Positions 59,840 to 60,140 of a stretch of 64,000 bases of DNA are shown here, piece by piece. The notes beneath the pieces were generated by a model. That model made no database searches and was not told where the DNA came from. It worked only from the letters and a program-made list of their open reading frames with translations. Source of the DNA: Escherichia coli (GTDB lineage: Bacteria; Pseudomonadota; Gammaproteobacteria; Enterobacterales; Enterobacteriaceae); NCBI RefSeq assembly GCF_011045215.1, contig NZ_CP049201.1; one strand, given 5' to 3'. The stretch's first letter is position 1. Every line of letters starts with the position of its first letter. Made by a program: the position numbers and the translations under genes.

Positions 59840-60140
59840 TGGGTAGACAAGGTAGATAACAGGTAGACAACAAAGAAACGGTTATCTACCCACTTAACAC
59901 AATGATAAAAAACAACTTTTATCTATTAGGTAGATAGGGTAGATAGTAAAAGTGATTTTCTTTTAACTCTCCATTCTCTAACCTGTATTTTCCTTTCGCT
60001 GCGTAAAAAAGTTTTTAAGCGAGATATTGTCTACCCTATCTACCTATTTCGCTGAATCCCTTGTGGCGCAAGGGTTTCAGCGGGTAGGCATCCATAAAAC
60101 TAGCATCTACCCAATATCTACCCGTCTACCTGTTGCAGGC
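59840..60140. repeat. Putative satellite replication origin: GGTAGA/TCTACC iterons flanking an AT-rich core
   Basis: About 12 copies in both orientations (gggtagacaaggtagataacaggtagacaa, ttatctaccc, aggtagatagggtagatag, tctaccctatctacctat, catctacccaatatctacccgtctacc) directly 3' of the primase-helicase gene. Confidence 0.7.

What the first reader, a model, noticed from the sequence alone, without database searches (positions are those of the whole stretch)
59840..60140. Iteron-type origin immediately 3' of the primase-helicase gene
About 12 GGTAGA(C/T)A / TCTACC repeats in both orientations flank an AT-rich core directly after the stop of the Walker-A primase-helicase, the arrangement seen for SaPI/PICI ori and Pri-Rep.
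Basis: partly seen in the sequence, partly recalled or inferred. Interest (0 to 1): 0.55.

Follow-up and report, generated by a model that had tools for sequence, protein, structure and literature searches.

The report
Replication origin of an E. coli PICI
The repeat cluster is real and is the replication origin of a phage-inducible chromosomal island in E. coli, a close relative of an origin already shown to work in strain CFT073, so it is a correct but largely ordinary finding.

Summary
Observation confirmed. Twelve GGTAGA-type sites (11 perfect, 1 GGTAGG) lie at 59842-60130 and begin 17 nt after the stop of the minus-strand initiator gene (60148-61896). A 300-nt stretch elsewhere in the window holds about 0.11.

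Interpretation supported. The experimentally validated pri-ori replicon of EcCICFT073 (Fillol-Salom 2018) has a 71%-identical initiator, followed by 11 GGTAGA sites. The initiator's C-terminus matches the P4 alpha origin-binding domain (PDB 1KA8). Across 78 related loci, GGTAGA arrays track identity in that domain (59% vs 35%). Iteron cores are 71/72 identical to a 77%-diverged relative, against 68% elsewhere.

What I add:
- The 12 sites form a positional palindrome about 59986.5, made of two six-site units (3+1+spacer+2). One unit has the same layout as the P4 ori.
- The two units are in swapped order relative to CFT073.
- The "primase" N-domain is a Toprim-like fold without the catalytic acidic residues, so primase activity is doubtful.
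- A second, orphan iteron array (CCCCACTTTT, 59099-59425) sits behind a truncated RepA helicase gene. This is the scar of a helicase-plus-origin cassette swap.

Verdict: a new member of a known kind, with modest interest.

The parts
60148..61896 (-). Initiator gene (annotated 'DNA primase family protein'), 582 aa. Domains: N-terminal Toprim-like domain, D5_N, SF3 ATPase (DUF5906, Walker A GDGGSGKST), C-terminal origin-binding domain.
   Evidence: ORF. Pfam D5_N 151-281, DUF5906 314-415, Pox_D5 515-572. TIGR01613 109.3 bits against a cut-off of 108.7. 71% identical to EcCICFT073 Pri.
60169..60441 (-). Codons 486-576: winged-helix origin-binding domain, the predicted reader of the GGTAGA iterons.
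   Evidence: phmmer hit to PDB 1KA8 (P4 alpha origin-binding domain), E=6.5e-8. Identity in this segment predicts the presence of GGTAGA arrays in 78 loci.
61516..61896 (-). Codons 1-127: portable N-terminal domain with a Toprim-like fold that lacks the catalytic Glu and the DxD motif.
60106..60130 (-). Unit 2, outer triplet of iterons (GGTAGA at 60125-60130, 60117-60122, 60106-60111 on the minus strand), 17 nt after the stop codon.
   Evidence: Cores are identical in L003.
60083..60088 (+). Unit 2, lone inverted iteron (GGTAGG here; GGTAGA in the relative L003).
60050..60082 (.). G+C-rich hairpin (14-nt arms, 13 of 14 paired) in the 38-nt spacer of unit 2. It is not an intrinsic terminator.
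   Evidence: Inverted repeat I4. dG -20.7, z -6.7; also present in CFT073 (z -3.0) but not in most other relatives. No terminator-like site found.
60028..60044 (-). Unit 2, inner iteron doublet.
59946..60027 (.). Central A+T-rich stretch between the two inner doublets, about 80 nt. It includes the A6GT5 tract at 60005-60016 and the dyad centre at about 59986.5. It is a candidate melting region.
   Evidence: GC 0.30-0.35. Mirror sums of the site coordinates. The AAAACTTTTT tract recurs next to the unit-2 doublet in CFT073, L004, L007, L031, L043 and the P4 crr.
59929..59945 (+). Unit 1, inner iteron doublet.
59892..59928 (.). Unit 1 spacer, 38 nt, GC 0.21. A second candidate unwinding element.
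   Evidence: GC is 0.13-0.26 in 10 of 13 relatives and the length is constant at 38-40 nt.
59883..59890 (-). Unit 1, lone inverted iteron.
59842..59869 (+). Unit 1, outer triplet of iterons.
59820..59830 (.). Left junction of the swapped helicase-plus-origin cassette. These 11 nt are shared by both parental homologies.
   Evidence: blastn: the L002 (RepA-type) match ends at 59830 and the L003 (pri-type) match starts at 59820.
59424..59831 (-). Remnant of a RepA (AAA_25) helicase-initiator gene: the last 135 codons only.
   Evidence: 98% identical to L002 RepA aa 336-470. Annotated as a pseudogene in cq9. AAA_25 domain found in the intact L002 protein.
59099..59425 (.). Orphan iteron array CCCCACTTTT (6 perfect sites plus 1 with one mismatch, both orientations) in 20-30% GC DNA. 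This is the origin that belonged to the lost RepA initiator.
   Evidence: The same array (7 perfect sites) follows the intact repA in L002, which has no GGTAGAYA.

Best explanation
The region 59842-60130 is the vegetative replication origin of a phage-inducible chromosomal island (PICI) integrated next to yifB in an E. coli chromosome.

Proposed mechanism (inferred):
1. After helper-phage induction and excision, the product of the adjacent gene binds the twelve GGTAGA(Y)A sites through its C-terminal winged-helix origin-binding domain.
2. The sites form two mirror-image six-site units (triplet, one inverted site, 38-nt spacer, doublet). Two SF3 helicase hexamers would therefore assemble symmetrically around the A+T-rich DNA, which comprises the 80-nt centre and the 38-nt unit-1 spacer.
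3. The hexamers melt this DNA and load themselves, as described for SaPI Rep proteins and P4 alpha.
4. Priming is probably done by a host or helper primase, because the N-terminal Toprim-like domain lacks the catalytic acidic residues.

Shown here: the array, its symmetry, homology to a tested origin, purifying selection on the cores, and covariation with the binding domain.
Inferred: binding, melting, double-hexamer loading and the source of primers.
For: - Significance of the array.
- Homology to a tested replicon: EcCICFT073 Pri is 71% identical and is followed by 11 GGTAGA sites in 222 nt. That pri-ori segment supported plasmid maintenance, and the delta-ori and delta-pri constructs did not (PMC6092414).
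- Binding domain: aa 486-576 match the P4 origin-binding domain 1KA8, E=6.5e-8. The ATPase matches SaPI5 PriRep 7OLA. SaPI Reps bind iterons just downstream of rep through a C-terminal winged helix and load themselves (PMC9371898).
- Selection: against L003, whose origin is about 77% identical, 71 of 72 core positions are identical versus 181 of 268 elsewhere; Fisher p=8e-10.
- Covariation: among 78 loci, the 15 with at least 6 GGTAGA sites have a median binding-domain identity of 59% against 35% (p=7e-9). For the helicase core the figures are 63% against 56% (p=0.003).
- Individual cases: L072 has 45% helicase identity, 63% binding-domain identity and 11 sites. L008-L011 have 63-64% helicase identity, 36-38% binding-domain identity and no sites; they carry GGTATAC or TGTTCA arrays instead.
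- Cassette behaviour: the RepA-type initiator is followed by CCCACTTTT arrays and no GGTAGAYA.
- Symmetry: all six mirror pairs sum to 119972-119973 (coordinates).
- Conserved layout: the 43-46-nt doublet-to-lone-site spacing holds in all iteron classes and in the P4 ori.
Against: - No experiment on this sequence exists.
- The order of the two half-origins is swapped relative to the tested CFT073 origin, so function of this arrangement is extrapolated.
- The loci used for the covariation test are phylogenetically related, so the p-values overstate independence. L060 is an exception: its binding domain is only 40% identical but it has 7 GGTAGA sites.
- In P4, the array right after the alpha gene is crr, a cis-acting helper element, and not the initiation site.
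- The island's int and regulator genes lie beyond the window end, so whether this copy is intact is unknown.
Confidence: 0.85

Rival explanations
1. The array is a crr-like cis-acting accessory site, as in P4: an initiator-binding enhancer immediately 3' of the initiator gene. Under this reading initiation takes place at another iteron cluster elsewhere in the island.
For: The P4 crr lies 46 nt after the alpha stop and carries the same kind of short inverted iterons. Unit 2 of the window shares three features with the crr repeats: the doublet, the roughly 43-nt spacing and an A5-6GT4-8 tract.
Against: No second GGTAGAYA cluster exists in the 26.8-kb locus that covers the whole near-identical island, nor in the island part of the window. 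Unit 1 has the exact layout of the P4 ori, not of crr. In CFT073 the pri-ori fragment alone replicated.
Confidence: 0.06
2. The array is chiefly a regulatory or copy-control element: an operator for autoregulation, handcuffing, or incompatibility against sibling islands. Alternatively it is a decaying relic in a defective island, and not an active origin.
For: Iteron arrays in plasmids also act in copy control. This island has already been through one replicon swap and keeps a dead RepA remnant and its origin. The int end of the island is not visible in the window.
Against: The initiator ORF is intact and 99-100% identical copies occur on many contigs. The cores are under clear purifying selection while the spacers drift. 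The layout is conserved across genera. The homologous fragment in CFT073 is required for replication.
Confidence: 0.06
3. The array is a packaging (cos/pac) site or a recombinase arm-site array, not a replication element.
For: The only support is that PICIs carry cos or pac sites and that integrases use repeated arm sites.
Against: The repeats covary with the C-terminal domain of the adjacent helicase, not with int. They always sit directly after the initiator stop in 5 or more iteron classes. In P4 the arm repeats and the ori repeats are distinct annotated sets.
Confidence: 0.02

Closest known systems
EcCICFT073 pri-ori replicon (Gram-negative PICI origin; Fillol-Salom et al. 2018, ISME J, PMC6092414)
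   Same: The iteron core (GGTAGA) and the count (11-12) are the same. The array starts 17 nt after the stop of a 71%-identical initiator. It has the same two six-site units with 38-40-nt spacers, one A+T-rich and one G+C-rich containing 'TTTCAG(C/T)GGGTAG' and a hairpin. The AAAAAGTTTT tract is shared. The island gene order is the same.
   Different: The order of the units is swapped. Here it is pri, unit 2, an 80-nt A+T-rich stretch, unit 1, with the doublets facing the centre. In CFT073 and most relatives it is pri, unit 1, unit 2, with the triplets facing the centre. The swapped type covers at least 80% of the query in only 9 of 5426 complete E. coli genomes. About 97 genomes match only unit 1, the pattern shown by CFT073-type origins. 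The window island also carries an orphan RepA-type origin.
Satellite phage P4: alpha protein with ori and crr
   Same: The initiator shares the D5_N, SF3 helicase and C-terminal origin-binding domain (1KA8) architecture, at 37% identity. The P4 ori has the identical site layout: three direct sites, one inverted, a 43-nt A+T spacer, then two direct, with spacings 10, 11, 22, 43, 10 against 9, 11, 21, 46, 9 here. It also has the same orientation relative to the initiator gene. The iteron differs at only two positions (GGTGAACA vs GGTAGACA). crr lies right after alpha, as unit 2 lies right after pri here.
   Different: P4 keeps the two elements kilobases apart, whereas here they are 80 nt apart in one palindrome. 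P4 alpha has a full primase domain with a zinc finger and the EGYATA motif. The window protein has only a 127-aa degenerate Toprim-like domain. The iteron sequence differs, so the origin is not cognate.
SaPI Rep/PriRep origins of Staphylococcus aureus (PMC9371898)
   Same: 6-12 short iterons lie immediately downstream of rep, with an A+T-rich centre and at least two iterons on each side pointing in opposite directions. The initiator is an SF3 self-loading helicase that reads the iterons with a C-terminal winged helix. The ATPase is homologous (7OLA, E=2.9e-14).
   Different: The host lineage, the iteron sequences and the N-terminal domains differ. No sequence similarity to the origin DNA was looked for or is expected.
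Iteron plasmids (F RepE, pSC101 RepA, R6K pi)
   Same: Repeated initiator-binding sites lie next to an A+T-rich region and close to the rep gene.
   Different: Plasmid iterons are 17-22-nt direct repeats bound by Rep_3-type initiators, which recruit DnaA and DnaB. Here the sites are 6-9 nt, in both orientations and in a palindrome; the initiator is itself a helicase; and no DnaA box lies in the array.

Membership tests
Gram-negative PICI origin (EcCICFT073 type) | Lies immediately 3' of the pri/rep gene | tested here: met
   The stop codon is at 60148-60150 and the first iteron ends at 60130.
Gram-negative PICI origin (EcCICFT073 type) | [quoted passage not shown] | tested here: met
   Six sites lie on each side of 59946-60027, where GC is 0.30-0.35.
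Gram-negative PICI origin (EcCICFT073 type) | Initiator and iterons homologous to those of the tested element | tested here: met
   71% protein identity. Same GGTAGA core, 11 sites in L005 4013-4234. The two units align with z=23.9 and z=14.8 against shuffles.
Gram-negative PICI origin (EcCICFT073 type) | Island context: int, AlpA-type regulator, genes pointing one way, 10-15 kb, no tail or lysis genes | tested here: inconclusive
   The window ends inside the island, so its int end is not visible. The 96-98%-identical island in cq9 has int, an HTH regulator, antA/B, Icd-like, DUF4222, pri, ProQ-like, PerC and DUF2213 genes in about 12 kb.
Gram-negative PICI origin (EcCICFT073 type) | Supports initiator-dependent autonomous replication | not testable with these tools
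   Shown only for the CFT073 homologue (PMC6092414).
Gram-negative PICI origin (EcCICFT073 type) | Same order of the two half-origins as the tested element | tested here: not met
   The units are in swapped order relative to L005 and L004. This affects the variant assignment, not the kind.
P4 ori/crr system | Alpha-type initiator with a C-terminal origin-binding domain | tested here: met
   1KA8 hit, E=6.5e-8. Alignment A1.
P4 ori/crr system | Type I iterons TGTTCACC | tested here: not met
   The iterons here are GGTAGAYA. TGTTCA arrays follow other homologues (L006, L007, L029, L031 and more).
P4 ori/crr system | Two separate cis elements (ori and crr) kilobases apart | tested here: not met
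   There is a single 289-nt cluster and no other cluster in the island.
P4 ori/crr system | Active primase domain (zinc finger and EGYATA Toprim motif) | tested here: not met
   There is no zinc finger. The site equivalent to the Toprim Glu is a near-invariant Ala22, and no conserved DxD is present. Activity itself cannot be tested here.
SaPI-type Rep origin (works like) | 6-12 iterons downstream of rep, A+T centre, at least 2 iterons on each side in opposite orientation, SF3 Rep with a C-terminal winged helix | tested here: met
Plasmid iteron origin (Rep_3 type) | 17-22-nt direct repeats, Rep_3 initiator, DnaA box | tested here: not met
   The cores are 6-9 nt and lie in both orientations. 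The initiator has D5_N and SF3 domains. There is no DnaA box in 59840-60140 apart from one 1-mismatch match at 60000-60008.

The most novel reading that the evidence does not exclude
The origin may be a compact fusion of the two cis elements that P4 keeps kilobases apart: unit 1 resembles the P4 ori and unit 2 resembles crr. The order of the two halves would then be free, since both pri-unit2-unit1 (here, the P4 order) and pri-unit1-unit2 (CFT073) are maintained by selection. That would mean two different symmetric loading geometries work for the same helicase.

In addition, the retained RepA-type origin, with its C-terminal RepA fragment, could let this island be replicated in trans by, or interfere with, co-resident RepA-type islands.
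Probability: 0.25. Interest if true: 0.5.

Novelty: new member of a known kind. Interest (0 to 1): 0.3.

Why it matters
On its own the finding only annotates one more PICI origin, which is useful for island annotation and for building PICI-based delivery vectors.

The comparative results are a little more useful:
- They give a sequence-level rule for finding such origins. The six-site unit, with its 43-46-nt spacing, starts 17 nt after the stop in the window- and CFT073-type loci and lies within a few hundred nt of it in the others.
- They assign iteron specificity to the C-terminal winged-helix domain.
- They show at least five iteron specificities in one initiator family.
- They show that the helicase, binding domain and origin move together as one cassette behind a constant N-terminal domain.

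The natural pair of permuted origins offers a ready-made test of whether SF3 self-loading helicases need a fixed head-to-head geometry. The SaPI structural paper leaves this question open (PMC9371898).

Tried and rejected
- Intrinsic terminator for the 60050-60082 hairpin: rejected. There is no T-run on either strand, the scan found no terminator-like site, and the downstream genes point the same way.
- The hairpin as a conserved structural element: not supported. It is strong only in the window and in CFT073, and absent in 8-10 other relatives.
- DnaA dependence: no DnaA box in the array.
- Known RNA families: nothing in 59000-60200 apart from a chance-level miRNA hit inside the orphan array.
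- Covariation between the initiator C-terminus and the iterons within E. coli (window vs CFT073 vs L004): uninformative, because all three keep GGTAGA. The test only became informative with the cross-genus loci.
- Global alignment scores of the window units against the P4 ori and crr: near background with the scoring used. Only CFT073 unit 1 vs the P4 ori was significant (z=8.7). The P4 comparison therefore rests on site layout, orientation and the A/T tract, not on overall sequence identity.
- Literature search for the GGTAGA iteron in text: nothing relevant. The published iteron sequences are in a figure I cannot read.
- Phage and plasmid collections: no record holds this origin.

Full report
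**1. Observation**

- GGTAGAYA occurs 11 times in the 64-kb window, 9 of them in 59842-60122. The expected number for the whole window is 2.06, and no shuffle out of 100 reaches 11.
- The 6-mer GGTAGA occurs 35 times in the window, 11 of them in 59842-60130.
- With a GGTAGG at 60083 there are 12 sites. Elsewhere the density is 0.11 per 300 nt, so the cluster has a Poisson probability of about 1e-18.
- GC falls to 0.25-0.35 between about 59880 and 60040.
- All genes here are on the minus strand. The 582-aa ORF 60148..61896(-) carries the Walker A motif GDGGSGKST and stops 17 nt before the first iteron.

**2. Context**

The window is E. coli chromosome.
- oriC lies at about 30850-31250, with 18 GATC sites in 400 nt and three perfect DnaA boxes.
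- The tRNA genes and 23S/5S rRNA genes of an rRNA operon follow (I read it as rrnC, from knowledge of the E. coli map), then hdfR, maoP and yifB.
- Homology to ordinary E. coli chromosome stops at about 55200. From there to the window end the sequence matches a roughly 12-kb island.
- In strain cq9 (96-98% identical) the island is annotated as integrase, HTH regulator, antA/antB, Icd-like, DUF4222, 'DNA primase family protein', a truncated 'helicase RepA' pseudogene, ProQ/FinO-like, PerC and DUF2213. Most of these genes (14 of 16) point the same way.
- This is the gene order of the Gram-negative phage-inducible chromosomal islands described by Fillol-Salom et al. 2018 (PMC6092414).

**3. The protein**

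- Pfam finds D5_N (151-281), DUF5906 (the SF3 P-loop, 314-415) and Pox_D5 (515-572). NCBIfam TIGR01613, 'phage/plasmid primase, P4 family', is just above its cut-off.
- Against solved structures, aa 225-430 match PriRep5 of SaPI5 (7OLA, E=2.9e-14). Residues 486-576 match the origin-binding domain of P4 alpha (1KA8, E=6.5e-8).
- The first 127 residues have no Pfam match.
- The residue that should be the Toprim glutamate is a near-invariant alanine ('IIFAG'). No DxD motif is conserved, and the zinc finger and EGYATA motif of P4 alpha are absent.
- I therefore read the protein as initiator plus SF3 helicase with a degenerate Toprim-like N-domain. Primase activity is doubtful. This is an inference.

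**4. Homology to a tested origin**

EcCICFT073 is the island whose pri-ori segment was shown to drive plasmid maintenance, while the delta-ori and delta-pri constructs did not. It lies in locus L005.
- Its Pri is 71% identical to the window protein.
- The 290 nt after its stop hold 11 GGTAGA sites.

The window array is thus a homologue of a validated origin.

**5. Selection on the sites**

The origin of strain TUM9757 (L003) is about 77% identical overall. When it is aligned with the window, 71 of 72 iteron-core positions are identical, against 181 of 268 other positions (Fisher p=8e-10). The single core difference turns the window's GGTAGG into GGTAGA.

**6. Who reads the sites**

A scan of one genome per species returned 80 loci encoding relatives that are 43-63% identical. 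In the 450 nt after each stop codon the commonest 6-mers fall into classes:
- GGTAGA (15 loci)
- the P4 type, TGTTCA / GGTGAACA (many loci)
- GGTATAC
- GGTAGGG
- GTCACT, GCACTG and GGAAGT

Many Xenorhabdus loci show only weak repeats.

GGTAGA arrays go with identity in the C-terminal domain: median 59% against 35%, Mann-Whitney p=7e-9. The link to the helicase core is much weaker: 63% against 56%, p=0.003.

Telling cases:
- L072 has a 45% helicase core but a 63% binding domain, and carries 11 GGTAGA sites.
- L008-L011 have a 63-64% helicase core but a 36-38% binding domain, and carry none.
- L060 is an exception. Its binding domain groups with the TGTTCA class but has an insertion where I place the wing, and it sits next to GGTAGACA sites.

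The loci are not phylogenetically independent, so the p-values are indicative only.

**7. Anatomy**

Read from the stop codon, the window origin is:
- `>>> <`
- a 38-nt G+C spacer with the hairpin
- `>>`
- about 80 nt of A+T-rich DNA, which includes an A6GT5 tract
- `<<`
- a 38-nt A+T spacer (GC 0.21)
- `> <<<`

All six mirror pairs of sites sum to 119972-119973, so the 12 sites form a positional palindrome about 59986.5 within 1 nt (coordinates). The spacers themselves are not palindromic.

The common arrangement has the same two units in the opposite order, with unit 1 next to the gene and the triplets facing each other. It is seen in CFT073, L004 and the Xenorhabdus, Pantoea and Raoultella loci. 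Sequence comparison confirms the swap: window unit 1 aligns with CFT073 unit 1 (z=23.9) and unit 2 with unit 2 (z=14.8).

The swapped type covers at least 80% of the query in only 9 of 5426 complete E. coli genomes. About 97 genomes match only unit 1.

The distance from the doublet to the lone inverted site is 43-46 nt in every class.

**8. Relation to P4**

- The annotated type-1 repeats of the P4 ori (9310-9413) have spacings 10, 11, 22, 43, 10. Window unit 1 has 9, 11, 21, 46, 9. The pattern of orientations is the same, as is the orientation relative to the initiator gene, and the word 'TTAAC' follows the inverted site in both.
- The iterons differ at two positions (GGTGAACA vs GGTAGACA).
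- The P4 crr lies directly after alpha. It shares with unit 2 the doublet, the 43-nt spacing and an A5-6GT4-8 tract.
- AAAACTTTTT occurs 15 times in 565 kb of fetched loci, and 12 of these (in 11 loci) are within 450 nt downstream of initiator genes.
- Overall sequence similarity to P4 is near background, apart from CFT073 unit 1 vs the P4 ori (z=8.7). This link therefore rests on layout.
- No second GGTAGAYA cluster exists in the island. Unlike P4, the two elements are therefore fused.

**9. Cassette swap and an orphan origin**

- Directly downstream lies the last 135 codons of a RepA (AAA_25) helicase gene, 98% identical to the intact gene of island L002.
- It is followed by a second array, CCCCACTTTT, with 6 perfect sites and 1 near-perfect site in 20-30% GC DNA at 59099-59425.
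- In L002 the intact RepA is followed by the same array with 7 sites and by no GGTAGAYA.
- The first 127 residues of the two initiators are 86% identical.
- The exchanged unit is therefore helicase core, binding domain and origin together. One crossover lies in the shared N-domain coding region, near 61508. The other is an 11-nt overlap of the two homologies at 59820-59830.
- The RepA-type origin is now without its initiator.

**10. Things ruled out**

- No terminator and no excess of promoter-like sites.
- No DnaA box in the array.
- No Rfam family.
- No phage or plasmid record holds this origin.
- The hairpin at 60050-60082 is strong here (z=-6.7) and in CFT073, but is not conserved in other relatives. 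I do not give it a general role.

**11. Mechanism and verdict**

The best-supported account is as follows. After induction, the initiator binds the twelve sites through its C-terminal winged helix. It assembles symmetrically on the two units, melts the A+T-rich DNA and loads itself as an SF3 helicase. This is the mechanism worked out for SaPI Reps (PMC9371898) and for P4 alpha. Primers probably come from another primase.

- Confidence that this is a functional PICI origin: 0.85.
- Main rival, that it acts only as a crr-like accessory site: about 0.06.
- Second rival, that it is a regulatory element or a relic: about 0.06.

The finding is correct and belongs to a known, experimentally characterised kind. 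The new elements are the permuted order of the half-origins, the positional palindrome, the P4-ori layout, the pseudo-Toprim domain and the orphan second origin. These are refinements and do not amount to a new kind.

Noticed in passing
window 59099-59425 and 59424-59831(-): A second, different iteron array (CCCCACTTTT, 6 perfect sites plus 1 near-perfect, both orientations, in 20-30% GC DNA) lies directly 3' of a 135-codon remnant of a RepA/AAA_25 helicase gene. It is the origin of a replicon whose initiator was replaced, and it is now orphaned.
   Followed up: yes
window 59820-59830 and about 61508: These are the breakpoints of the helicase-plus-origin cassette exchange. One is an 11-nt overlap of the two parental homologies at the origin-distal side. 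The other is a homologous crossover inside the shared N-terminal-domain coding region.
   Followed up: partly
[not shown]
   Followed up: partly
window 30850-31250: This is the chromosomal origin oriC: 18 GATC sites in 400 nt (1.8 expected) and perfect DnaA boxes at 30950, 31056 and 31130. The island sits only about 24 kb from it, next to yifB.
   Followed up: partly
L007-L086 (450 nt after each initiator stop): One initiator family shows at least five further iteron specificities (TGTTCA/GGTGAACA, GGTATAC, GGTAGGG, GTCACT, GCACTG, GGAAGT). All sit in the same doublet, 43-46-nt spacer, inverted site, triplet layout. Many Xenorhabdus and Photorhabdus homologues show no clear array.
   Followed up: partly
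L060 (Kluyvera georgiana), C-terminal domain: This locus is an exception to the covariation. Its binding domain groups with the TGTTCA class but has a 5-residue insertion where I place the wing (from the alignment, not checked on a structure), and it lies next to GGTAGACA sites. It may be a natural specificity switch.
   Followed up: no
window 60005-60016; L004, L005, L006 (P4 crr), L007, L031, L043: An A5-6GT4-8 tract recurs about 10-25 nt outside the unit-2 doublet in both the GGTAGA and the P4-type origins. 12 of its 15 occurrences in 565 kb of loci fall within 450 nt after initiator genes. Its role is unknown (bend, unwinding element or host-factor site).
   Followed up: partly
window 63125-63197(+): A weak SymR-like antitoxin RNA match (37 bits, gathering score 61, E=3e-4) lies in the regulatory end of the island.
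   Followed up: no
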